Notes: generated by a model not told the origin, from the sequence alone. A DNA stretch of 32,000 nt from an uncultured Solirubrobacterales bacterium (GCA_963743475.1 CAVUPS010000001.1:857362-889361), one strand, 5' to 3'; shown: positions 824 to 21,293, counted from the first letter of the stretch. Made by a program: numbers and translations.

Positions 824-1860
824 GAACGGCGCACGCAGCGCGCCTCGGCCAATCATGAGACCAGCGGTGCGCGCTCAGAGCCGGCAAACAGGCTCCACGC
901 CGCGGAACTCCGCAAACTGATTCGGCCCTGAGACTCGGTTCGGACACCTGACCCGATCGCACGTGTCCGTAATCGATCGCTCTATGAGACGCCGCCTTTG
1001 ACAGAAAGGGGCTGGGGCGTCCTTACTGCCTGCTACCAGAATGAGGGGCCACACGTCGGCGCTACGTCTGCGCAGGCGTGTCGAGATCAGGGCACAGACG
1101 CAAGTCTCTGTCCGCATGAGTGTCGGCTGCGAACGCTCGCGCCATCAGCCGGGCGTCGCGGCGTTGGACTTCTGGGTCGCGAAGCGACCAGGCAAGAAGC
1201 CACAGGGCCGCCTTGTGAAGCTGCGACAACCGAGCGGCGTCGATCGCATCCTCCACGCGCGCGAACGCCTCGCCCCGGTGGAGCATGCCCTCGACTTGCT
1301 GGTGGCTCGGTCGAAGGAGAGTGGCGCGGTGCTGATCACGACCGCGCTCCTTTCTGGTCCAGCGGCTGTTCCGATCTGAGTGCAGCACAGCCGACAGTCC
1401 CGATAGCGAACAACCCGGTTAGCACAGATCGACCCGCCCGGCGAGCCGCCATCTCGCTGTTTGCAAAGGAATCGGCGACCGGGGCAGGCGTCCGCCGATT
1501 ATTGGCGAGCCGGTGTCGGTTTGGGGGCGCAGGTGCCATGGCGGCGAACGTCAGGTATCCGGTGCCGGCGACGACAACGTGGCTCCGTCCCATGATGGCG
1601 CGCACACAATAGGGCGCACGCGGCAGTGACCGGCAAGACATGTCAACATCAGCATCATGAGCAGTTAGCGTGAGGTTTGGTTAACGAGAGAATCCCGCGT
1701 GTCCGCCAGAGGCGCTCGCACCGAATTACGGCGAGCCGGCGTTACGGACACTCCCGGTGGCTGTCGAAACGGAAAGCTGAATTTCTCGTTTGCAATAGTG
1801 CCGGTAACGCGGGACACTTCGAGCGTGGCCGAGGTGGTGGAGCAGAGTGGCCTCGTTTCG

Positions 1861-2130
1861 ATGCGCATGTACGTGGCGAGCGATAGCAGCGCCTCGGCGC
1901 AGGCGCGTCGGCAGCTTGCGGCTCTGCGTGAGCGCTTCGGCGGGGGGGATTGGGAGGTCGAGGTCGTCGATGTGTTCGAGCAGCCCGCGCTCGCGGAGGC
2001 CGATCGTGTCCTCGCGACCCCGATTCTGATCCGGCTGCTTCCATCGCGGCGTCTGAGCGTGATCGGGGACTTTGCCGACTTGCAAGCGGTCGCGAACGCG
2101 CTCGATCTTCAACCGGAGGTGGCACGATGA
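1861..2130 (+). CDS. kaiB: KaiB-like circadian clock protein (thioredoxin-like fold), 89 aa
   Basis: The ATG at 1861 lies inside ORF 1699..2130. MRMYVASDSS...VDVFEQPALAEADRVLATPILIRLLPSRRLSVIGDF aligns by eye with S. elongatus KaiB (LKLYVAGNT...[36 protein letters not shown]). The stop TGA 2128-2130 overlaps the kaiC ATG 2127-2129 (ATGA). Confidence 0.85.
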   Translation: MRMYVASDSSASAQARRQLAALRERFGGGDWEVEVVDVFEQPALAEADRVLATPILIRLLPSRRLSVIGDFADLQAVANALDLQPEVAR

Positions 2131-3617
2131 CCCCTTCACCGGTGCAGCGGATCCACGTCGGTATCCCAGGGTTTGATGAGATTGTGCACGGCGGACTGCC
2201 GCGCGGTCGCAGTACCTTGATCGCGGGAGCGACGGGGACCGGCAAGACCGTGTTCGGCCTGCAGTTCCTGTGGGGCGGCGCGCAGCTGGGGGAGCCCGGG
2301 GTGATGGTGACGTTCGCCGAGCGCCCCGAGGATCTGATCGCGAACGTCGAGAGTTTCGGCTGGGATCTGGGCGGTCTTGTCAGTGACGGGCGTCTGGCGT
2401 TCGTGGACGCGACGCCGGAGATGGAGCTGCTCGTCAGCGGCCGGTTCGATCTCGGCGGGCTCACGGCGCGGATCGCTCACGCGCTCAGCGAGGTCGACGC
2501 CACGCGATTGTTTTTGGATCCGATCGACGCGCTGTTCGAGGAGTTCTCCAACGTGGTCGAGGTCCGGCGTTCGTTCGCGGCGATGTTACGCGCGCTGCGG
2601 CCGCTGGGCGCGACGGCGTTGATCGCGGCTGAGCGGCCGAACGAGAACGGCAGCGTCACGCGTTACGGCGCGGAGGAGTTCGCGGTCGACAACGTCATTG
2701 TGCTGCGCAACTCCCGCGAGGAGGAGCGTCGGCGCCGAACGGTCGAGGTCCTCAAGCTGCGAGGCGCCGATCATCACCGCGGCGAGTTCCCGTTCGTCAT
2801 CAACGCGAGCACTGGGGTCGAGATCGTGCCGTTTTCTCCGATCGAGGGTGATGACAGCGGGTCACCCGAGCGGATCTCGCTCGGAAACGCAGAACTCGAC
2901 GCGATGTGCGGCGGCGGGATGTACCGCGACGCCTTGATGATGATCACTGGCGCGACCGGTACGGGCAAGACGCTGATCGGCTTGCAGTTCATGGTCGCCG
3001 GGATCAAGGCCGGCGAGCGGGTGCTGTACCTGTCCTTCGAGGAGAGCCGCTGGCAGCTGGAGCGCAACGCCAACGCGTGGGGGATGGACCTCACGGGCTC
3101 CGGGCACGAGGGCAGCCTCGAGATCGTGTCGCGCTACCCCGCTCGCGTGGGGCTCGAGGACCTGCTCGTGGAGCTCAAGCACACGGTCGAGGAATTCGAC
3201 CCGACGCGACTGGTACTCGACAGCATCACCGCGGTCGAGCACAACGCGCCGCAGAACGCGTTTCGTGAGTTCAGTGTCGGGCTCAGCGGATTCCTCAAAG
3301 GGCGGGGTGTGGCGACGATGATGACGACGACGCTGCCGGACCTGCTCGGAGGCACGCACGCCACCGACCTGTATCTGTCGACGATCGCGGATGCGATCAT
3401 CGCGCTGCGCTACTTCGATCTCGACAGCCGCGTCAGGCGCGCGATCTTGGTGCTAAAGGTCCGCGGATCCAGGCACGCGAATGAGATGCACGAGTACGAG
3501 ATCCTCAGCACCGGCATGTCGGTGAAGGGACCGATCCAGGGGATCGGCGGAATCCTGGCCGGCCTGGCGCAGCCGTCGATCCTCTCCAACGGCGGCGCCA
3601 GCGCCTTGCAACGGTAA
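2127..3617 (+). CDS. kaiC: KaiC homologue, double RecA-like ATPase / autokinase, 496 aa
   Basis: The true start is the internal ATG at 2127 (MTPSPVQRIHVGIPGFDEIVHGGLP), with GGAGGTGG at 2115-2122 as RBS. There are two Walker A motifs, GATGTGKT (CI and CII). Other matching segments are SFGWDL / AWGMDL, RRRRTVEVLKLRG and ILVLKVRGSRH. The CII segment THATDLYLSTIADAII matches the S. elongatus phosphosite region SITDSHISTITDTII. Confidence 0.95.
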   Translation: MTPSPVQRIHVGIPGFDEIVHGGLPRGRSTLIAGATGTGKTVFGLQFLWGGAQLGEPGVMVTFAERPEDLIANVESFGWDLGGLVSDGRLAFVDATPEMELLVSGRFDLGGLTARIAHALSEVDATRLFLDPIDALFEEFSNVVEVRRSFAAMLRALRPLGATALIAAERPNENGSVTRYGAEEFAVDNVIVLRNSREEERRRRTVEVLKLRGADHHRGEFPFVINASTGVEIVPFSPIEGDDSGSPERISLGNAELDAMCGGGMYRDALMMITGATGTGKTLIGLQFMVAGIKAGERVLYLSFEESRWQLERNANAWGMDLTGSGHEGSLEIVSRYPARVGLEDLLVELKHTVEEFDPTRLVLDSITAVEHNAPQNAFREFSVGLSGFLKGRGVATMMTTTLPDLLGGTHATDLYLSTIADAIIALRYFDLDSRVRRAILVLKVRGSRHANEMHEYEILSTGMSVKGPIQGIGGILAGLAQPSILSNGGASALQR

Positions 3618-3620
3618 GGC

Positions 3621-3878
3621 GTGGGCGCAACACACGCGAGCGAGCCAGCCAGAACCGGCGACGGCTCGGCGATCCCCCGCGACAGTCTGCTCGCGGTGAT
3701 CGAGAGCAACGTCGACGGCCTGACCGCGGACTTCGCCGCGGTGCTCGCGCTCCCCCCGGAAGGCAGCAACCTCCGGCTCGTCGTCTCACAGTGGTCCACG
3801 GCCACGGGGAGCCACGTCACCGGCCCAACGCGGAGCGCTGCCCCGCTCTCGAAGGAGATCGTTCGCAGCCGCGCGTAG
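3621..3878 (+). CDS. Small ORF (85 aa) abutting kaiC; resembles the N-terminal part of a GAF-type sensor domain and may be a truncated remnant
   Basis: The GTG start is 3 nt after the kaiC TAA. Third-position G/C is very high, as expected for a coding frame here. LLAVIESNVDGLTADFAAVLALPPEGSNLRLVVSQW looks like the start of a GAF domain, but the ORF is only about half the length of one. After the TAG a second coding-like frame (VARELLLRGPLRLSVAKIDA) runs for about 20 codons. Confidence 0.4.
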   Translation: MGATHASEPARTGDGSAIPRDSLLAVIESNVDGLTADFAAVLALPPEGSNLRLVVSQWSTATGSHVTGPTRSAAPLSKEIVRSRA

Positions 3879-4321
3879 CGCGCGAACTGCTGCTTCGGGG
3901 TCCGCTGAGGCTGTCGGTCGCGAAGATCGACGCGTAGCCGTCGGGGTGGTGCGCTCCCCCCTTTGAGCCTAAGCCTGATTTCGAGACACACAATTTCGGG
4001 GAGCATGCGCGCCCCCGGCTTCTGCTATTGGGCGAGGAGGCCGTTGGCCGTCGAAGCCATTACCACCGCGCTAAGTCGTGCAAATTGTCGTCCGGCCTGG
4101 GAAGAGTCGCTTGAGCGGTCAAAGTTCGGTGGGCAGCGGCCGCGTGCGGCCCTTTTGGTTGCGGCGACGCAGACAGTTAGGACCATGTGATGGAGCTTTA
4201 TGACGCGAGTCGTTTCGGGCTTGAGGAAGTGTGCGCTGGGTAGCTCCGCGGCTGCGCGACGGACGCGGGACCGGTCGGAGGTCAGTCGGCCCGTTGGACG
4301 ATCGCCTGCGGTGCTTGGCTG

Positions 4322-6442
4322 ATGGCAAGCCAGGCGACATTCGGAGCTCTGAGCGCGGCTCCGCCGCCCGCGATCCTGATCGTCGACGACGACGCGGGCA
4401 AGCGCCTGGCGATCCGGACGATCCTCGCGCCGCTGGGCCATGTGATCGTCGAGGCCGACTCCGGACGCGCCGCGCTGCGCGCGGTCCTGCGCGAGAGGTT
4501 TGCCTTGATCTTGATGGATGTCCGGATGCCGATCCTGGATGGGTATGAGACGGCGAGGCTGATCCGGGGGCGCAGCCAGACGCGGCTGACGCCGATCATT
4601 TTCGTTACGGGCTCGGTCGAGGAGCACCGGGGGGCGACGGAGACCGCTTATGCCAGCGGCGCGGTGGACTTCATCTTCACGCCGGTGGACCCGGATGTGC
4701 TGCGGATCAAGGTCTCGACCTATGTCGCTCTGTTCGTGCAGTCCCAGGAGCTGCAGATCCTCAACGCGGCGTTGCGCGACAGCGAGGTGCGCGCGCACGC
4801 GGTGCTTGAGAACGTGGTCGACGGGATCGTGACGGTCGACGAGAGGGGTCTGATCGAATCGTTTACCCGATCGGCGCGACGGCTGTTTGGCTACAGCGAG
4901 GAGGAGGTGATCGGGCAGCCGCTGGGGCTGATCATCGCGCCGGGCGAACACGACGCCCTGTCTGATCCCGTGCTGACGGGGAAGCGGCCGATCGAGGCGT
5001 TGGGTTGCCGCAAGGACGGCTCGTGGTTCCCGATCGAGGTGCAAACGAGCCAGATGCAGATCGGCGGGCGGACGGTGGAAATCGACAGCATCCGTGACAT
5101 CTCCGAGCGCAAGGCCTACACCGAGGCGCTTGGTCACCAGGCGCTCCACGACGCTCTGACCGGGCTGCCGAACCGGATCCTGTTCGCTGATCGCATGGAC
5201 CAGGCGATCGTGTCTGCCGAGCGTGCGGGCGAGCCGCGCGGTGTGCTGGTGATGGATCTGAACGGCTTCAAGCATGTCAATGACACGCTCGGACGCGATC
5301 GCGGTGACACGCTGCTCAGGGAGATCGGCAAGCGTCTGACGGACGGGTTGCGTGAGACCGACACAGTGGCGCGACTCGGTGGAGACGAGTTCGCGATCCT
5401 GCTCGACGGCGCCAGCGACCTGCCGGCCGCGGCGACGGCGGCCTGGAAGATCCAACAGGTGTGCGAGGCGCCATTCGTGATCGATGACGAGGTCGTGCGC
5501 GTGTCGACGAGCATCGGCATCGCCCTGTTTCCCGAGCACGGCAGAACCACGGCCGATCTGCTGCACCGCGCCGACCTGGCGATGTATGACGCCAAGCGAT
5601 CCGGCACCAGCTACGCCGTCTTTGACGCGGCGCACGCAAAGCAGATGGCACATTCGCTCGCGCTGCTGGCCGATCTGCGCGAGTGCGTCGCCCGCGAGGA
5701 ACTCGTCGTCTACTACCAGCCCCTGATCGACCTCGCGACCCGCAGGACCACCGGCGTCGAGGCGCTCGTCCGCTGGCGCCACCCCAAGCACGGACTCCTG
5801 CAACCCGGAAGCTTTTTGCCCCAGGCCGAGCGCACCCCACTGATCGCACCGCTGACGAGGTGGGTGCTCAACGACGCGCTGCGCCAACAGCAGCGCTGGC
5901 GCGGCGACGGTATCGACGTCACGATGGCCGTCAATATCTCCGCTCGCACGTTGAAACCCAACGGTGACTTGCCCGACACCGTCGCCGAGCTGTCCGACTT
6001 CTGGGGCATCGCACCCGACCGGCTGACCCTCGAGCTCACCGAGAGGACGCTGATCGAACCCGCCGCCCCCAACGTCCTGGCCCGTCTGCACAAGATGGGA
6101 GGCAAGGTGTCAATCGACGACTTCGGCACCGGATACTCCTCACTGGCCTACCTGAAGAACCTGCCGGTCGACCAGCTCAAGATCGATCAATCCTTCGTCC
6201 GAAACCTCGCTAGGGTCCCCGGCGACGCGGTCATCGTGCGCTCGACGATCGACCTCGCGCACAACCTCGGCATGACGGTCGTCGCCGAGGGCGTCGAGGA
6301 CGAGACCACGCTCGACTTCCTCGCCCAGTACGGATGCGACAGCGCCCAAGGCCACCTCTTCAGCCGCGCACTCACCGCCCAGGAGCTCACCCCCTGGCTC
6401 ACCGAGTCAGCCTACGCAGCACACCCCCCACCTCGCAACTAG
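4322..6442 (+). CDS. Response-regulator receiver - PAS - GGDEF - EAL protein (c-di-GMP synthesis/hydrolysis)
   Basis: REC: ILIVDDDAG...ALILMDVRMPILDGYE...IIFVTG. PAS: LENVVDGIVTVDERGLIESFTRSARRLFGYSEEEVIGQPL. GGDEF domain with an intact I-site and active site: RETD-TVARL-GGDEF. EAL domain: YYQPLIDL, GVEALVRW, SIDDFGTGYSSLAYL, VVAEGVE, AQGHLFS. Confidence 0.95.
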   Translation: MASQATFGALSAAPPPAILIVDDDAGKRLAIRTILAPLGHVIVEADSGRAALRAVLRERFALILMDVRMPILDGYETARLIRGRSQTRLTPIIFVTGSVEEHRGATETAYASGAVDFIFTPVDPDVLRIKVSTYVALFVQSQELQILNAALRDSEVRAHAVLENVVDGIVTVDERGLIESFTRSARRLFGYSEEEVIGQPLGLIIAPGEHDALSDPVLTGKRPIEALGCRKDGSWFPIEVQTSQMQIGGRTVEIDSIRDISERKAYTEALGHQALHDALTGLPNRILFADRMDQAIVSAERAGEPRGVLVMDLNGFKHVNDTLGRDRGDTLLREIGKRLTDGLRETDTVARLGGDEFAILLDGASDLPAAATAAWKIQQVCEAPFVIDDEVVRVSTSIGIALFPEHGRTTADLLHRADLAMYDAKRSGTSYAVFDAAHAKQMAHSLALLADLRECVAREELVVYYQPLIDLATRRTTGVEALVRWRHPKHGLLQPGSFLPQAERTPLIAPLTRWVLNDALRQQQRWRGDGIDVTMAVNISARTLKPNGDLPDTVAELSDFWGIAPDRLTLELTERTLIEPAAPNVLARLHKMGGKVSIDDFGTGYSSLAYLKNLPVDQLKIDQSFVRNLARVPGDAVIVRSTIDLAHNLGMTVVAEGVEDETTLDFLAQYGCDSAQGHLFSRALTAQELTPWLTESAYAAHPPPRN

Positions 6443-6601
6443 GTTGGTGGAAGCGGATTCTGCTCGTTGCGAGGCCGCCAGGAGCGGATTAGTAGGGGGG
6501 TTCAAGGGTCTAGGGTTTCTGTACCAACAATCCCCTGACCCCGGCGTCCCGATCGAACAGAACGACCCGCTCGCTGTACACGCGGCCGAGGCCGCCGCCG
6601 G

Positions 6602-10527: not shown

Positions 10528-11775
10528 GTGGACCGCCTGCTCCTGATCCTGCCGTCGGCCACCTACCGGGCGCCGGACTTCCTGGCGGCAGCACGGGAGC
10601 TCGGCGTCGCGGTCACGGTCGCGTCCGAGCGCCGGGCGGCGATGTCGGCGGCGATGGGCGAACGTGCGCTCACCCTGCGGCTGTCGGACCCGGCAGTGGC
10701 GGCCGAGCAGATCGCCCAGCGTGCCCGGGAGACCCCGTTCGCTGCGGTCGTGGGCGTCGATGACCAGGGCGTGATGGCCGCCGCGCTGGGTGCCGAGCGC
10801 CTCGGCCTGCCCCACAACCCGCCGGCCGCCGTCGCCCGCACGCGCGACAAGGCGGCGATGCGCCGGGCGCTCGCGGAGGCCGGCGTCCCGCAACCGCGCT
10901 TCGCGCTGCTGCCCTATGGAGCCGACGTCGCGACGGTGGCGCGCGAGGTGGGCCTTCCCTGCGTCGTCAAGCCGCTGGGGCTGTCAGGCAGCCGGGGGGT
11001 GATCCGGGCGGATGACGGCGAGCAGGCGCGCTCGGCCGCCGAGCGCGTCCGGGGCATTCTCGCCGCCGCTCAGGAGCCGCCCGGCGCTCCGCTGCTGCTG
11101 GAGAGCTACCTGCCCGGCGCGGAGATGGCGATCGAGGGGCTGCTGCGCGGGGGCTGTCTGGAGGTGCTGGCAGTGTTCGACAAGCCCGACCCGCTCGAGG
11201 GGCCGTACTTCGAGGAGACGCTGTACGTGACGCCGTCGCGGCTGGCGACCGGCGTCCTGGCCGAGGTCGAGGCGGTCACTGCGCGGGCGGCGCGCGCGCT
11301 AGGGCTGCGGGAGGGACCGGTCCACGCCGAGCTGCGCGTGGACGGCGAGCGGGTGAGCGTCCTGGAGCTAGCGGCCCGGTCGATCGGCGGGCTGTGCTCT
11401 CGCGCGCTGCGCTTCGGTGCCGGCGTCAGCCTGGAGCAGGTGATCCTCCGCCACGCCTTGGGCCTCGGGCTCGAGGACCTGGCGCGGGAGTCGACGGCGT
11501 CTGGCGTGATGATGATCCCGATCCCCGAGGCTGGCGTGCTGCGCGCGGTCGAGGGGCAGGGGGACGCGCGGGCGGTGGAGGGCATCGGCGGGCTGGAGAT
11601 CACGATTGCCCGCGGCCGCGCCGTCGTGCCGCTGCCCGACGGCGACCGCTACCTAGGCTTCATATTCGCGCGCGCGGCGAGCGCCGACGCGGTCGAGCGC
11701 TCCCTGCGCTCCGCGCACGGCCGCCTACGGATCCGGATCGAGCCGCACGCGCCCGAGCCGGTCGCCGCGCGCTAG
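10528..11775 (+). CDS. ATP-grasp domain protein (carboxylate-amine/thiol ligase superfamily), substrate unknown
   Basis: MDRLLLILPSATYRAPDFLAAARELG pre-ATP-grasp domain. DKAAMRRALAEAGVPQP, LPCVVKPLGLSGSRGVIRADD, LLLESYLPGAEMAIEGLL and PVHAELRV...VLELAARSIGG follow the ATP-grasp layout. Confidence 0.8.
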   Translation: MDRLLLILPSATYRAPDFLAAARELGVAVTVASERRAAMSAAMGERALTLRLSDPAVAAEQIAQRARETPFAAVVGVDDQGVMAAALGAERLGLPHNPPAAVARTRDKAAMRRALAEAGVPQPRFALLPYGADVATVAREVGLPCVVKPLGLSGSRGVIRADDGEQARSAAERVRGILAAAQEPPGAPLLLESYLPGAEMAIEGLLRGGCLEVLAVFDKPDPLEGPYFEETLYVTPSRLATGVLAEVEAVTARAARALGLREGPVHAELRVDGERVSVLELAARSIGGLCSRALRFGAGVSLEQVILRHALGLGLEDLARESTASGVMMIPIPEAGVLRAVEGQGDARAVEGIGGLEITIARGRAVVPLPDGDRYLGFIFARAASADAVERSLRSAHGRLRIRIEPHAPEPVAAR

Positions 11776-11787
11776 CGTGGGTCACCC

Positions 11788-13194
11788 GTGCGCGTCCTGT
11801 TGATCTCCACCTACGAGCTGGGCCACCAGCCGTTGCACGTCGCGTCGCCGGCGGCCGCGCTGCGCCGCGCCGGGCACGATGTCCGCTGCCTGGATCTCAG
11901 CGTGCAGCCGTGGGACCACGGTGCGCTGGAATGGGCGCAGGCGGTCGGCTTCTCGGTGCCGATGCACACCGCCATGCGGCTGGCGCTCAGCGCCGGCCGC
12001 CGAGTGCGCCGCGAGCACCCCGGGCTGCCGATCTGCTTCTACGGGCTCTACGCCACGGTCAGCCGCGAGCTGGTAGAGCGTGAGCTCGCCGCGCGCGCGA
12101 TCGCTGGCGAGTACGAGCCGGCGCTCACGGCCTGGGTGGACGAGCTGGCGGCCCCGTGCGCGACCGCCCAGGCCGCCGGACGGCCGATCATCCACCTGCA
12201 GCGCGGCACCTTCGACCCGCCGGCGCGCGAGCTGCTGCCCGGACTCGAGCGCTACGCCCGCCTGGCGGTGGGCGGGGAGGAGCGGCTGGTCGGGTACGTC
12301 GAGGCCAGCCATGGGTGCGTGCATCGCTGCCGGCATTGCCCTGTCCCCGCCGTCTACGACGGGCGCATCCGCATCGTGCAGGCCGAGACCGTCCTGCGCG
12401 ACATCGAGCACCTGGCGGACATGGGCGCGCGGCACATCACGTTCGGCGATCCCGACTTCCTCAACGGCTGGCGCCACTCTCTGGCGATCGTACGTGCGCT
12501 CCACGAGCGCCGACCGGAGCTGACCTTCGACTGCACGACGAAGGTCGAGCACGTGCTCGAGCACGCCGACGTGTGGGATCAGATGGCCGCCTCGGGCTGC
12601 CTATTCGTTGTCAGCGCGCTGGAGAGCGTCAACGACGAGATCCTCGCCCGCCTCGACAAGGGCCACACCACCGCGCAAGCGGTGCAAGCCCTCGACCTGC
12701 TGCGCGAGCACGGAATCGAGACCAGGCCCTCGTTTATGCCCTTCACGCCGTGGACGACCCCGGCTGACGTGCTAGACATCGTCGACTTCGTCGCCGCGCA
12801 CGATCTGGTCGCCAACGTCGACCCGGTGCAGTACACGATCCGGCTGCTCGTGCCCGAGGACTCGCTACTGCTGGCGAGCGAGGACCTGCGCGAGCACCTC
12901 GGCCCCTACCAAGCCCAACGACTCAGCTACCCGTGGCGCTCAGCGGACCCAACAGCCGACCGGCTGCAAGGCCGCCTCAGCGCGCTGGTCCAACAGAGCG
13001 CCGCCGCGGAGGAAGCAATTGGCCTGACGTTCGCGCGCATCCGCACGGCGGTGCGCGAGGCCACCGGCGAAGCGGACGGCCCCGAGCCCGAGGCCATCCC
13101 CATGGGATCGACCGAGGGGAGGCCACGGCTCACCGAGCCGTGGTTCTGTTGAGCGGAGCCCACCGAGGACCAGTTCGGTCCTCTCACAGCGTGA
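11788..13194 (+). CDS. B12-binding-domain-type radical SAM protein with a C-terminal C-U-A-E-P tail; predicted selenoprotein (in-frame TGA 13150-13152 read as Sec), 468 aa if recoded
   Basis: GTG start 12 nt after the ATP-grasp stop. N-terminus MRVLLISTYELGHQPLHVASPAAALRRAGHDV. Radical SAM cluster motif EASHGCVHRCRHCPV (CxxxCxxC). The ORF track ends at TGA 13150-13152, but the codons read TGG TTC TGT TGA GCG GAG CCC = W F C U A E P. Thirteen sense codons (AEPTEDQFGPLTA) follow before TGA 13192-13194. I recall a RefSeq/NCBIfam family named CUAEP/CCAEP-tail radical SAM (seleno)protein; that is from memory and unverified. Confidence 0.8.
13165..13183 (+). other. Candidate bacterial SECIS hairpin (could also be a shared terminator hairpin of the convergent gene pair)
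   Basis: GAGGACC (13165-13171), loop AGTTC, GGTCCTC (13177-13183): a perfect 7-bp stem. It begins 12 nt after the UGA, and the apical loop containing GU sits about 20 nt after the UGA. The hairpin ends exactly at the stop codon of the convergent DsrE-like gene (13184-13186). Confidence 0.5.
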
Positions 13195-13549
13195 TCACAT
13201 GATCCGGCGGGTCTCCCGCCAGCGCCGCGTAGAGGTCGGGGAAGCAACCGACCCGCACGCCGACGACCGTTCCCGCCGGCAGCGCCGCGCCGATCTCCCC
13301 CTCGGCCAAGCCGCGCTCCAACGCGCACTGGTCACAGAGCATCAGCAGCATTCCGCGCTGGGCGGCCACTCGCCCGAGGCGCTCGCCCACCGGATCGCCC
13401 GCTCGGAGCAGGTAGGTGTTGTCGTCAAAGAAAAACATTCCGACAACCTCAACGCCGTGCGTGCCCTGCTCCAGCTGCGGAAGGATCATCCTCCCGAGCT
13501 TGTAGCTGGCCGTGTGGCCAGAGGTGGAGAACACGTAGGCAACCTTCAT
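13184..13549 (-). CDS. DsrE/TusD-like sulfur(selenium?)-relay family protein, ~121 aa (alternative GTG start at 13582)
   Basis: MKVAYVFSTSGHTASYKLGRMILPQLEQGTHGVEVVGMFFFDDNTYLL is a typical DsrE-fold N-terminus. The conserved Cys segment LLMLCDQCALERGL is present. The 3' end overlaps the extended rSAM ORF by 11 nt, in convergent orientation. Confidence 0.7.
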   Translation of the reverse strand: MKVAYVFSTSGHTASYKLGRMILPQLEQGTHGVEVVGMFFFDDNTYLLRAGDPVGERLGRVAAQRGMLLMLCDQCALERGLAEGEIGAALPAGTVVGVRVGCFPDLYAALAGDPPDHVITL

Positions 13550-13930
13550 CCCGGCGGGAGAGTAGCCGGAAGCCGCGCGCACCCGTTGCCGGTGGTGGTC
13601 CCGGAGGTCACATGACCATCACTCCCCGGTCAGAAGAGCCGCACCCGCGTCGTCAACGGCCCTGCCGCAGTCGCGTGGTCCCGGCAGCCACGGCCGCCGT
13701 ATCGGGACGATCGGTTTCGACGGGACGCGATCGCGCGGACCCGGGCGCCGCGACGATTCCTTTTCTTCTCGCGCCGGCGGGCAGCGCGCTACCGCAATGG
13801 CGACGTTTCAGCCGTCCAACTCTACGCGCGGGACCCCGACGAGGTTCGTTGTCACGCTTCCGAGGGAGTCAAGCGGCGTGCTGCGCGGGAGCCACTTGCG
13901 CCGTTCGGTTGCCTTGGCCGCAACCCTTAG

Positions 13931-13967
13931 ACCGCCGGGGCGACCACTTCCGTGACGCCCCGGCGGT
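13931..13967 (-). other. Very stable hairpin: 12-bp G+C-rich stem plus a 3-bp inner stem, capped on the minus strand by a GGAA (GNRA) tetraloop
   Basis: ACCGCCGGGGCG (13931-13942) pairs with CGCCCCGGCGGT (13956-13967). Inner CAC/GTG stem; the loop reads TTCC on plus and GGAA on minus. Function unknown; strand assignment rests only on the GNRA reading. Confidence 0.3.
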
Positions 13968-14219
13968 GGTTGAGGGAGGAGAGGGTGCTGCATCCGCCGG
14001 CGAGATATGAGGCCGGCGAATCTTCCGGCTCCTAGGCGCTGTCCTGGATGGCCCCGCGCGCGAGAAGCTCCTGCACCGATGAACGCGGGGGAGCGTTCGT
14101 GAGCGCTGACAATCGGGGACCGCGAGAGAACCTCTGCGCCCTGAACGGACCGACGTCCCTTGACGGCAACCGAATGCATGCTCTGCGCGGGTCTATTGCT
14201 CAGCGTCGTCTGCGTTTGG

Positions 14220-16981: not shown

Positions 16982-17428
16982 CGCGGCCCGGCCAGGCGCG
17001 GCCGCCGAGGACAACCGAACCGAGGCGGACCTCGCGCTGGCGCGGCGACAGGGCGCCCCCTAACCGCGGAGACACGCGTCCTGTTCCATCGTGCCTCGAC
17101 TGGCGACCGGCGAATGCAACACGAACGCGACCCGGTACCCGGGAGTGCTGATCGCAAGCGGGGGCTGGGTCGTCGGCCTCACGCTCACTGTCCTCGCCCT
17201 CGCGCTGATTACCTTCCGCATGAGCCGACAGCGTCGGCACCCCAAACGACTAAATTTCGCGGCTCGATCATCCCGCCTGCGTGTACCCCTCCCGACGCTT
17301 CGCCGCGACGCCGCCGCCCTCGCGGACGGCCGACGCACGGCTCGGGTCCTCGTGGCTGGCTAGACCTTCGACGTAGAGCGTTCTCATCTCTTTCTCCAGG
17401 CCGGTTTATCCCGGCGCTTGCCGGCTCC

Positions 17429-19937: not shown

Positions 19938-20297
19938 AACGCTCTGTTCGCCGGCACCGTCGCGATCCCTGCCGATTCTCACGCCGGGTCGCGTTCCACG
20001 GCGTCGGGGTCTGGTGCTGCTGCGCCGCCCGCGGGCCTCAGTGGCCGGCGGCGGTGCACACCAAACCGTGCGCGTGGCAGTGGCCGCGCGGTGTGTGGCC
20101 TTGAGGCGGCGTGCGAGGGCTCAGAGCGAGCCCGAGCCAGCGCGCTCGCTCGCGGTCAAGCATCGCGACATCGCCCCCGAACTGCAACCTTGGGATCGAT
20201 CCGGTCGGGCTCGGCGCGCGTTCCAGCCTGAAACGTCGCGAGCGTGCCGCGCGGCACGTGGCACCATGTGCCACCGCATGACCAACCAGCGAGTCAG

Positions 20298-21293
20298 GTG
20301 GAGCACGTGGAGCTGCTGATCGCGAACAACCCCGACCGGGACTCGCGGCTGCCGTTCCTGCTGCGGCTGCCGATCGGCGGCGGGATGGTGTTCCGCACGT
20401 CGGGGACGTGGCCGCGTACCCGAGCGCTGTACTGCCACCCCATCCCGCTCGACGAGTGGCCGCAGGCGCCGGAGATCGTCGACCGGGCCGCGGTCCGGTC
20501 GTGCGTGCGGCGCGGCGCGGCCATCGACCTGGTCCTCGACCGCGCCCGGGAGAACCGCTCGCAGATCGTGTTCACCACCGCGCGTGGCCGCGATGTCGTG
20601 TTCTGGCAGTCGCCCCGAACGCGCAGGCAGGCGCGCCCGAACGTGCGCATCCCGACCGCCCAGGCCGGCGGGATCCCCGAGCTCGAGATCATCGTCGACT
20701 CCCACGAGCAATACCCGTTCCGCTTCGCGTCCCAACAGGTCCGGACGATGCGACGGGCGCTGCCATGCGGCGACTACGGGCTCACCCTCAACGGGAGGCT
20801 GATCGCGTCCGTCGAGCGAAAGTCCCTGCCCGACCTGGTCGCCAGCCTGACCAGCGGGAAGCTGCGCTATGCGGTCGCAGAGCTGGCGGCGCTACCCCGG
20901 GCGGCGGTCGTGGTCGAGGATCGCTACTCGGCCGTGTTCAAGCTGACCCGCGTGCGACCGGCCCAGGTAGCCGACGGGCTCGCGGAGATCCAGATCCGGT
21001 GGCCCGCCGTACCGATCCTGTTCGCGGAGACGCGTCAACTGGCCGAGGAGTGGACGTACCGGTTCCTCGCCGCGGCCCGCCTGTGGGCTGACACCGAACC
21101 GGCCGCGATCGACCGACTGCCTCCTCTAAACGGTCCGACCGCGACCGACCTCGACCGGGCGCCGTCCGCACCCAACCCCTCGACCGCCGAGGTACGCGCC
21201 TGGGCACGGGCCAACGGCCTGACCATCCCCGACCGGGGAAGACTCAGGCCCGACGTCTGGGCGGCGTGGCGACGCGCCAACGCCCGCACATAG
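20298..21293 (+). CDS. Three-part protein: unknown N-domain, ERCC4/XPF-Mus81-type nuclease domain, and an Lsr2-like C-terminal DNA-binding domain
   Basis: Start is uncertain (GTG 20298 or 20307, ATG 20244). ERCC4 motifs: LEIIVDSHEQYPF, LPCGDYGL, ASVERKSLPDLVASL, AAVVVEDRY. The C-terminus STAEVRAWARANGLTIPDRGRLRPDVWAAWRRAN matches the Lsr2 DNA-binding domain pattern (IRxWAxxNGxxVxxRGRIxxxVxxAY), including the RGR motif. Confidence 0.8.
   Translation: MEHVELLIANNPDRDSRLPFLLRLPIGGGMVFRTSGTWPRTRALYCHPIPLDEWPQAPEIVDRAAVRSCVRRGAAIDLVLDRARENRSQIVFTTARGRDVVFWQSPRTRRQARPNVRIPTAQAGGIPELEIIVDSHEQYPFRFASQQVRTMRRALPCGDYGLTLNGRLIASVERKSLPDLVASLTSGKLRYAVAELAALPRAAVVVEDRYSAVFKLTRVRPAQVADGLAEIQIRWPAVPILFAETRQLAEEWTYRFLAAARLWADTEPAAIDRLPPLNGPTATDLDRAPSAPNPSTAEVRAWARANGLTIPDRGRLRPDVWAAWRRANART

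What the first reader, a model, noticed from the sequence alone, without database searches (positions are those of the whole stretch)
1861..6442. KaiA-less kaiB-kaiC pair next to a REC-PAS-GGDEF-EAL enzyme: possible timer-to-c-di-GMP output
kaiB and kaiC are translationally coupled (ATGA overlap). No kaiA, sasA or cikA homologue is present in the window. The only signalling gene on the same strand downstream is a receiver-PAS-GGDEF-EAL protein in which the I-site (RETD), GGDEF, EAL and DDFGTG motifs are all intact. KaiBC-only systems outside cyanobacteria are known to act as hourglass timers or stress modules, usually alongside a PAS histidine kinase. Here the kinase position is occupied by an 85-aa GAF-like stub. 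That would leave a c-di-GMP enzyme as the candidate output, which to my knowledge has not been described for this kind of high-G+C organism.
Basis: partly seen in the sequence, partly recalled or inferred. Interest (0 to 1): 0.7.

Follow-up and report, generated by a model that had tools for sequence, protein, structure and literature searches.

The report
kaiBC operon with deleted c-di-GMP partner
This soil actinobacterium has an intact kaiB-kaiC timer gene pair, but the c-di-GMP enzyme gene that follows kaiC in its relatives survives here only as an 85-codon remnant, and the intact c-di-GMP gene next door is an unrelated neighbour.

Summary
The sequence features are real. kaiB (1825/1861-2130) and kaiC (2127-3617) overlap by ATGA. 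An 85-codon ORF lies at 3621-3878. A REC-PAS-GGDEF-EAL gene with intact motifs lies at 4322-6442. No KaiA or histidine kinase was found in the ORFs scanned.

In relatives with 77-94% identical KaiC (Solirubrobacterales), kaiC is followed at -4 to +34 nt by a 710-734 aa PAS-GAF-GGDEF-EAL gene. The 85-codon ORF is what remains of that gene. A clean 375-nt in-frame deletion removed its PAS domain, and everything after the start of GAF is gone.

That N-terminal PAS belongs to a distinct subfamily found beside kaiBC across phyla. It is fused to a histidine kinase in 45 cases and to GGDEF/EAL in 15.

The REC-PAS-GGDEF-EAL gene belongs to a different family. It carries its own conserved 5' region. 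In five other genomic contexts it has no kaiBC within 10 kb. In three contexts it is coupled to a HAMP-GAF hybrid kinase.

So a KaiBC-to-c-di-GMP link is plausible for this clade, but through the gene that is destroyed here. This genomic pattern was already reported (De Luca 2011; KidA 2022).

The parts
1825..2130 (+). kaiB. The GTG start at 1825 gives 101 aa.
   Evidence: Pfam KaiB 1.8e-16. PDB KaiB hits at 1e-12 to 1e-13. Relatives' KaiB are 101-107 aa, and the N-terminal VAEVVEQSG is shared with L107.
2127..3617 (+). kaiC, 496 aa with two domains. Both Walker A motifs, the CII EE pair and the LST phosphosite motif are kept. The CI motif is TFAER.
   Evidence: Pfam KaiC with 2 stretches, 1.7e-110. 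PDB KaiC hits reach 7.6e-146, against 1e-79 for Rhodobacter KaiC. Only 1 residue is unique among 109 homologues, and none lies at a conserved position. The ATGA overlap with kaiB is visible.
3621..3878 (+). Relic of the clade's third operon gene (PAS-GAF-GGDEF-EAL). Residues 1-33 correspond to the N-terminus of the intact protein. The deletion junction is at 3719|3720. The segment 3720 to about 3826 corresponds to the start of the GAF domain, followed by unrelated sequence up to the stop codon.
   Evidence: tblastn: 82% identity to residues 3-24 and 44% to residues 114-182 of the 734-aa protein of L002. blastn breakpoints were found in five relatives. The DNA alignment shows a clean 375-nt gap. 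No Pfam hit.
3827..4072 (.). Spacer of unknown origin between the relic and the 5' region of the next gene.
   Evidence: No blastn match to any fetched locus. No Rfam match at E<=1.
4073..4321 (+). Own conserved 5' region of the REC-PAS-GGDEF-EAL gene. It contains a terminator-like hairpin with a T tract (4138-4151) and a 27-nt motif at 4205-4231.
   Evidence: 94.7% DNA identity to L103 begins at 4073, and 81% identity to L106 begins at 4130. Alignment. The motif occurs only next to this gene family or its hybrid kinase. The hairpin was found, but the number of such sites is not above the shuffle expectation. The RNA fold z-score is +0.85.
4322..6442 (+). REC-PAS-GGDEF-EAL protein of 706 aa, referred to here as w706.
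   Evidence: Pfam domains, motifs. More than 100 homologues at 60-94% identity share the same architecture. It is only about 39% identical to the kaiC-coupled GGDEF-EAL proteins.

Best explanation
The locus is a KaiA-less kaiB-kaiC operon of a Solirubrobacterales-type actinobacterium that has recently lost its own output gene.

In relatives the operon has three genes: kaiB, kaiC, and an effector of about 720 aa. The effector consists of a kaiBC-specific N-terminal PAS domain (PASn), then GAF, GGDEF and EAL.

Inferred mechanism in those relatives: KaiC autophosphorylates on its conserved Ser/Thr pair without KaiA. KaiB binds one phospho-state. PASn docks the effector onto KaiB or KaiC, as the PAS domains of cyanobacterial KidA dock onto fold-switched KaiB. 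[quoted passage not shown]

Shown for this window: a 375-nt in-frame deletion removed PASn, and a second break removed everything after the first ~35 codons of GAF. An 85-codon relic remains. It lies next to an independent cassette, made of a 5' region plus a REC-PAS-GGDEF-EAL gene.

That gene belongs to a separate family whose usual upstream partner is a HAMP-GAF hybrid histidine kinase. It is most likely transcribed from its own 5' region and controlled through its receiver domain, not by KaiBC.

KaiB and KaiC themselves look intact. They therefore either signal through a PASn protein encoded elsewhere in the genome or are an orphan module.
For: Third gene in relatives:
- kaiC is followed at -4 to +34 nt by PAS-GAF-GGDEF-EAL in L002-L006, L008, L094 and L108. 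In L107 the gene is interrupted by a frameshift.

Relic:
- Two-part homology to the intact protein.
- DNA homology runs from 1750-1790 to 3722, resumes at 3720-3727 and ends at about 3800-3826.
- The gap is exactly 375 nt.
- The closest relative, L107 (93.4% DNA identity), still has the deleted segment, so the loss is recent.

PASn as a kaiBC-specific subfamily:
- HMM scores are bimodal: 96-151 bits for about 75 domains, all beside kaiBC, against 45 bits or less for other complete PAS domains; two copies cut by contig ends score about 60.
- The fused outputs are HK in 45 cases, GGDEF/EAL in 15 and other or unknown in 12.
- Pfam counts for the gene downstream of kaiC in 64 distant loci: HATPase_c 26, GGDEF 7.

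w706 as an independent unit:
- Homology to L103 and L106 is confined to 4073/4130-6443.
- There is no kaiBC within 10 kb in L103, L104/105, L106, L110 or L111.
- A hybrid HK sits directly upstream and overlaps the gene in L104/105, L108 and L111.

KaiC intact.

KidA PAS domains bind KaiB: PMC9478674.
Against: - w706-like sequence lies within 6 kb of kaiBC in 3 of 6 distinct contexts among the closest relatives. These are the window, L108 (two genes downstream of kaiC) and L109 (a fragment upstream of kaiB). The adjacency may therefore not be pure chance.
- In L088 a different REC-PAS-GGDEF gene follows kaiC at +87 nt.
- No convincing terminator or promoter was found between kaiC and w706. The only hairpin belongs to the w706 5' region, and such sites are not enriched over shuffles. 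Read-through transcription therefore remains possible.
- All functional steps (KaiC phosphorylation, KaiB binding, PASn docking, enzyme regulation) are inferred, not shown.
- Several relatives come from assemblies that may carry indel errors, for example the frameshift in L107.
- The rest of the genome could not be searched for a second PASn gene.
Confidence: 0.78

Rival explanations
1. The REC-PAS-GGDEF-EAL protein is the output of KaiBC in this organism. It would be co-transcribed by read-through, and its REC or PAS domain would read the KaiC state. On this view it replaced the lost effector (non-orthologous replacement).
For: - The gene is on the same strand, and no strong terminator or sigma-70-like promoter was detected in 3617-4322.
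- All catalytic motifs are intact.
- w706-like genes or fragments recur near kaiBC in L108 and L109, and another REC-PAS-GGDEF gene follows kaiC in L088.
- De Luca 2011 notes that receiver proteins follow some kaiC genes.
Against: - There is no kaiBC within 10 kb of five other members of the w706 family.
- The gene carries its own conserved 5' region in unrelated contexts.
- Its family partner is a HAMP-GAF hybrid kinase.
- Its PAS lacks the kaiBC-linked signature, scoring 39 bits against at least 96.
- The gap is 704 nt, compared with -4 to +34 nt for true partners.
- The juxtaposition is recent, because L107 lacks it.
Confidence: 0.1
2. The 85-codon ORF is a functional small protein, for example a mini-GAF adaptor or a KaiC-binding peptide retained after domain loss, rather than a dead relic.
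For: - The PAS deletion is exactly in frame (375 nt), and the ORF starts 3 nt after the kaiC stop codon, so it would be translated.
- The same ORF is present in the 99.3% identical contig L001.
Against: - It keeps only about 35 of the roughly 135 GAF residues plus about 24 N-terminal residues. That is too little to fold as GAF, and Pfam finds nothing.
- The last ~17 codons have no homology to relatives.
- It is seen only in this lineage, and the closest relative has the full gene.
Confidence: 0.05
3. The whole kaiBC module is decaying in this lineage. On this view kaiB and kaiC no longer function and will be lost next.
For: - The cognate effector is destroyed.
- L109 also lacks the effector.
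- The kaiBC cassette has different flanks in every relative, which suggests an accessory, frequently rearranged module.
Against: - KaiC is full length and has no unusual residue at any conserved position.
- dN/dS against L002, L088 and L108 is 0.14-0.16.
- The ATGA coupling is retained.
- The deletion is recent, so decay may simply not be visible yet.
Confidence: 0.15

Closest known systems
[quoted passage not shown] 2011, PMC3164672; hourglass-type KaiBC of Rhodobacter and Rhodopseudomonas, cited from my own knowledge)
   Same: kaiB and kaiC are coupled, no kaiA is present, and the ST phosphosites are kept. In relatives a PAS-containing signalling gene directly follows kaiC.
   Different: In this window the PAS effector is a deletion relic. 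The KaiC is closer to cyanobacterial-type KaiC (E 1e-124 to 1e-146) than to Rhodobacter KaiC (E 1e-79). At 496 aa it lacks the long C-terminal extension of the 568-aa Rhodobacter protein.
KidA of Synechococcus elongatus (four PAS domains, GGDEF, EAL; binds fold-switched KaiB; PMC9478674)
   Same: It is a PAS-GGDEF-EAL protein physically linked to the Kai system through PAS domains. This is the best experimental analogue for the clade's PASn-GAF-GGDEF-EAL gene.
   Different: kidA is not in the kai operon. KidA has four PAS domains and no GAF, and it works with a KaiABC oscillator.
Two-component REC-PAS-GGDEF-EAL response regulators paired with hybrid histidine kinases
   Same: w706 has this architecture, and its family members are overlapped by a HAMP-GAF-HisKA-HATPase-REC kinase in L104/105, L108 and L111.
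   Different: No kinase is encoded next to w706 in the window. The receiver has Thr where receivers carry the conserved Lys, throughout the family.

Membership tests
KaiC (double-domain circadian-type KaiC) | Two tandem RecA-like KaiC domains, each with a Walker A motif | tested here: met
   Pfam PF06745 with 2 stretches, 1.7e-110. GATGTGKT is found at residues 34 and 275.
KaiC (double-domain circadian-type KaiC) | Ser/Thr phosphorylation pair in CII (S431/T432 in S. elongatus) and the CII catalytic Glu pair | tested here: met
   YLSTIADA aligns with HISTITDT. The motif LSFEES is present.
KaiC (double-domain circadian-type KaiC) | CI catalytic Glu pair (E77/E78 in S. elongatus) | tested here: not met
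   The window has TFAER where cyanobacteria have TFEE(T/S). Ala at the first position is shared by most of the clade: 60 of 109 homologues have FAER. The consequence for the CI ATPase is unknown.
KaiB | KaiB thioredoxin-like domain encoded directly upstream of kaiC | tested here: met
   PF07689 at 1.8e-16. PDB KaiB hits. ATGA overlap with kaiC.
KaiA-less kaiBC + PAS-effector operon | A gene with the kaiBC-linked N-terminal PAS (PASn) adjacent to kaiBC | tested here: not met
   No domain scoring 90 bits or more occurs in the window, and the best PAS scores 39 bits. The PASn-coding segment is deleted. Relatives meet this criterion.
KaiA-less kaiBC + PAS-effector operon | Absence of kaiA | tested here: inconclusive
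   No KaiA was found in the ORFs scanned in the 32-kb window. The rest of the genome was not available.
KidA-like Kai-interacting diguanylate cyclase | PAS domains that bind fold-switched KaiB | not testable with these tools
   This needs a binding assay. The only basis is the analogy with PMC9478674.
Bifunctional GGDEF-EAL c-di-GMP enzyme (w706) | GGDEF with an RxxD I-site. EAL, DDFGTG, the catalytic Lys and the EGxE motif. | tested here: met
   RETD-TVARL-GGDEF, VEALVR, DDFGTGYS, LKID and AEGVE were all found. Activity was not tested.
Phospho-accepting receiver domain (w706 REC) | Acidic pocket, phospho-acceptor Asp, conserved Thr/Ser and conserved Lys | tested here: inconclusive
   The DD pair, the Asp in LILMDVRMP and the Thr in FVTGS are present. 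The conserved Lys is replaced by Thr (DFIFTP) in the window and in P0121, P0132 and P0139.

The most novel reading that the evidence does not exclude
After the cognate PASn effector was lost, KaiBC in this lineage may have been rewired onto the neighbouring REC-PAS-GGDEF-EAL gene, for example by read-through transcription. More broadly, the KaiBC module and the HAMP-GAF kinase/REC-PAS-GGDEF-EAL pair may form one two-tier c-di-GMP circuit. That would explain why w706-like sequences recur near kaiBC in the window, L108 and L109.
Probability: 0.1. Interest if true: 0.6.

Novelty: new member of a known kind. Interest (0 to 1): 0.3.

Why it matters
For this window the result is mostly corrective. 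The attractive 'timer next to a c-di-GMP enzyme' picture comes from a recent deletion, not from an evolved operon.

The comparative data have some wider value. They show that a whole Solirubrobacterales KaiC clade, and scattered Chloroflexota, Gammaproteobacteria and Kineosporiaceae, couple kaiBC to a GGDEF-EAL effector instead of a histidine kinase. They also show that the coupling element is a recognisable PAS subfamily with no solved structure.

This gives a concrete candidate docking domain for testing how KaiA-less KaiBC systems transmit their state. The window's lineage is a natural effector knock-out that could be compared with close relatives that keep the gene.

Tried and rejected
- Pfam on the 85-aa ORF gave nothing. 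Its identity came only from relatives.
- Rfam at gathering threshold and at E<=1 found no RNA family in 3600-4400.
- Folding of 4100-4325 gave no unusual stability, z = +0.85. A riboswitch or attenuator in the w706 leader is therefore not supported.
- The promoter/terminator scan found no sigma-70-like site, and terminator-like sites occur at chance frequency. It cannot decide the co-transcription question.
- I considered whether w706 arose by recombination with the lost GGDEF-EAL gene. I rejected this because identity is only about 39% and w706 is complete with its own 5' region.
- I considered an L108-like ancestor (kaiBC, effector, hybrid HK, w706-like gene) collapsed by a single deletion. 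This is unlikely. The L108 copy is only 61% identical to w706, whereas a copy 94% identical at the protein level (94.7% DNA) sits in an unrelated context in L103. L108 also lacks the 27-nt leader motif.
- dN/dS of 0.36 against L107 first suggested relaxed selection on kaiC. The excess changes lie in L107, which has 26 unique residues and is probably affected by assembly errors, not in the window.
- No solved structure matches PASn.
- The metagenome scan returned few long contigs. Neighbourhood counts therefore rest on about a dozen distinct clade contexts.
Full report
**1. What is in the sequence**

The window has 65-75% G+C. On the + strand it carries four features.
- kaiB: Pfam KaiB at 1.8e-16.
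- kaiC: 2127-3617, 496 aa, two KaiC domains, E 1.7e-110.
- An 85-codon ORF at 3621-3878 with no Pfam hit.
- A 706-aa REC-PAS-GGDEF-EAL protein at 4322-6442.

The ATGA overlap of kaiB and kaiC at 2127-2130 is visible in the sequence. The kaiB start is more likely the GTG at 1825, giving 101 aa as in relatives, than the ATG at 1861. The GGDEF-EAL protein has RETD-x5-GGDEF, EAL, DDFGTG, LKID and EGVE.

Pfam scans of the other large ORFs found metabolic and transport genes but no KaiA and no histidine kinase. KaiC homologues are named Solirubrobacteraceae or Solirubrobacterales MAGs by their sources. An independent contig that is 99.3% identical (L001) has the same kaiC, 85-aa ORF and GGDEF-EAL start.

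**2. What the 85-codon ORF is**

In relatives with 77-89% identical KaiC, kaiC is followed by a 710-734 aa gene. It overlaps kaiC by 4 nt or starts after a gap of at most 34 nt. Its domains are PAS, GAF, GGDEF and EAL. This holds for L002-L005, L006, L008, L094 and L108. L007 carries a fused or frameshifted version.

tblastn of that protein against the window gives two hits inside the 85-codon ORF. Residues 3-24 match at 82% identity, and residues about 114-182 (the start of GAF) match at 44%. At the DNA level, homology with every relative runs from just upstream of kaiB to window position 3722. It resumes at 3720-3727 and fades at about 3800-3826.

The multiple alignment shows a clean 375-nt (125-codon) gap with the junction at 3719|3720. 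This gap removes the PAS domain exactly and in frame. After about 3826 there is no similarity, and a stop codon follows at 3876-3878.

The closest relative, L107 (93.4% DNA identity over kaiBC), still has the 378-nt PAS segment and the full GAF-GGDEF-EAL part. Both losses are therefore recent. The ORF is a relic of the operon's third gene, not a gene in place of a kinase.

**3. The kaiBC-linked PAS domain**

The N-terminal PAS of the lost gene (PASn) is not a generic PAS. An HMM built from the PAS domains of genes downstream of kaiC was searched against all six-frame ORFs of all fetched loci. The scores were bimodal.
- 96-151 bits for about 75 domains. All of them lie directly downstream of kaiC, divergently upstream of kaiB, or in the gene preceding kaiB.
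- 45 bits or less for every other complete PAS domain. Two copies truncated by contig ends score about 60 bits.

The proteins carrying PASn end in a histidine kinase in 45 cases, in GGDEF/EAL in 15, and in something unclassified or truncated in 12. An independent Pfam count over the gene downstream of kaiC in 64 distant loci (KaiC 43-48% identical, many phyla) gave HATPase_c in 26 and GGDEF in 7.

GGDEF/EAL outputs occur in Chloroflexus and other Chloroflexota, Methylococcaceae, Salinisphaeraceae, Kineosporiaceae and the Solirubrobacterales clade. In a Solirubrobacterales relative with 68% identical KaiC, the same PASn is fused to HisKA-HATPase_c (L009). The output domain has therefore been swapped on a constant input domain.

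The window has no PASn. Its best PAS, in the 706-aa protein, scores 39 bits.

**4. The REC-PAS-GGDEF-EAL gene (w706)**

w706 has more than 100 homologues at 60-94% identity with the same architecture. It is only about 39% identical to the kaiC-coupled enzymes, over GGDEF-EAL only.

Five other contexts of this family show no kaiBC within 10 kb: L103 (94%), L104/105 (80%), L106 (77%), L110 (79%) and L111 (73%). In L104/105, L111 and L108 the gene is overlapped by an upstream HAMP-GAF-HisKA-HATPase-REC hybrid kinase. That kinase is therefore its likely cognate partner.

DNA homology between the window and L103 (94.7%) covers 4073-6443 only. Homology with L106 (81%) covers 4130-6423. The gene thus travels with about 190-250 nt of its own upstream sequence. 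That region includes the only terminator-like hairpin between kaiC and w706 (4138-4151). It also includes a 27-nt motif found only 5' of this family or of its hybrid kinase. No Rfam family and no unusual fold stability were found there.

**5.

w706-like sequence occurs near kaiBC in two more of the six distinct close contexts.
- In L108 it lies two genes downstream of kaiC, after the true effector and the hybrid kinase. It is 61% identical to w706.
- In L109 a PAS fragment with 85% DNA identity to window 4758-4941 lies upstream of kaiB. L109 also lacks the effector.
- In L088 (KaiC 89% identical) a non-orthologous REC-PAS-GGDEF gene follows kaiC at +87 nt. A PASn multi-PAS GGDEF-EAL gene is divergent from kaiB in the same locus.

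These arrangements differ in order and orientation. They look like a rearranging cluster of signalling genes rather than a conserved operon, but a functional connection is not excluded. Computation also cannot exclude read-through from kaiC into w706.

**6. State of KaiBC**

The window's KaiC has only one residue not seen in 108 homologues, and that residue is at a variable position. dN/dS against L002, L088 and L108 is 0.14-0.16. A higher value against L107 is explained by anomalies in L107 (26 unique residues).

KaiC is much closer to cyanobacterial-type KaiC than to Rhodobacter KaiC, and it lacks the latter's long C-terminal extension. Both Walker A motifs, the CII EE pair and the LST phosphosites are kept. 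The CI motif is TFAER instead of TFEE, a trait of most of the clade.

**7. Mechanism, with its status**

Shown by sequence and comparison:
- The three-gene operon in relatives.
- The relic in the window.
- The independence of w706.

Inferred from the KidA work (PAS domains bind fold-switched KaiB, PMC9478674) and from general knowledge of KaiBC:
- In relatives, PASn docks the GAF-GGDEF-EAL enzyme to the KaiB-KaiC complex, so that the phospho-state of KaiC sets c-di-GMP turnover.
- In some relatives (L002, L108) the EAL metal-binding DDFGTG is replaced by QNFGTG, which suggests a net cyclase.

In this window that link is cut.

**8. Comparison with what is known, and novelty**

De Luca et al. 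[quoted passage not shown] The KidA paper notes PAS genes co-operonic with kaiBC and proposes PAS-mediated association as a general mechanism. No paper in the searched library deals with KaiBC and c-di-GMP in Actinobacteria.

The clade's operon is thus a new member of a known pattern. The window itself shows an ordinary gene-decay event that mimics a novel association.

**Verdict**

The specific output candidate is not supported. Interest is low to moderate (0.3).

Noticed in passing
window 17189-17384 (-): Rfam match to group II intron D1-D4-6 (76 bits, E 9e-20). Nearby ORFs have no Pfam hit and no reverse transcriptase was seen. It may be an ORF-less or fragmentary intron.
   Followed up: partly
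window 10528-14010: G+C rises to 0.74-0.75, against about 0.66 elsewhere. The rise covers an ATP-grasp/L-amino-acid-ligase-like gene and a B12-binding radical SAM gene, followed by two ORFs of 138 and 132 aa with no Pfam hit. This could be a peptide-modification cluster.
   Followed up: no
window 20244-21293 (+): A protein that combines an ERCC4 nuclease domain with a C-terminal Lsr2 DNA-binding domain, which struck me as an unusual fusion.
   Followed up: no
window 2127-3617, KaiC residues 61-69: The CI catalytic motif reads TFAER, with Ala where cyanobacterial KaiC has the first of two catalytic Glu residues. 60 of 109 homologues share FAER. CII keeps the EE pair. This may mean a very slow or altered CI ATPase in this clade.
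   Followed up: partly
window 4322-6442, REC domain (DFIFTP); also P0121, P0132, P0139: The receiver domain of the whole REC-PAS-GGDEF-EAL family has Thr where receivers carry the conserved Lys. The phospho-acceptor Asp is kept. It may be an atypical receiver or a pseudo-receiver.
   Followed up: partly
window 4205-4231; L103 9975; L104 6989; L106 9894; L109 3814: A conserved 27-nt motif, GCGAGTCGTTTCGGGCTTGAGGAAGYG, lies 5' of this gene family or 5' of the hybrid kinase that precedes it. In L103 it lies within a possible upstream ORF of about 43 codons. The window has a 1-nt insertion there. No Rfam match was found.
   Followed up: partly
window 1750-1825 and relatives L002, L006, L088, L107, L108, L109: The kaiBC cassette has different flanking genes in every relative, even at 85-93% DNA identity. 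Homology begins only 35-75 nt upstream of kaiB. The module seems to move or to sit in a fast-rearranging region.
   Followed up: partly
L009, L010-L087 (genes next to kaiBC): A distinct PAS subfamily (PASn) marks the gene next to kaiBC across many phyla. HMM scores are bimodal, and no solved structure matches it (best PDB E 0.033). It is a candidate Kai-docking domain.
   Followed up: yes
L002 and L108 third gene, EAL domain: The metal-binding DDFGTG motif is QNFGTG in two of the kaiC-coupled GGDEF-EAL proteins but intact in L006, L008 and L094. The phosphodiesterase half may be inactive in some lineages.
   Followed up: no
L110 7323-12190: Tandem duplication of the REC-PAS-GGDEF-EAL gene in one relative.
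   Followed up: no
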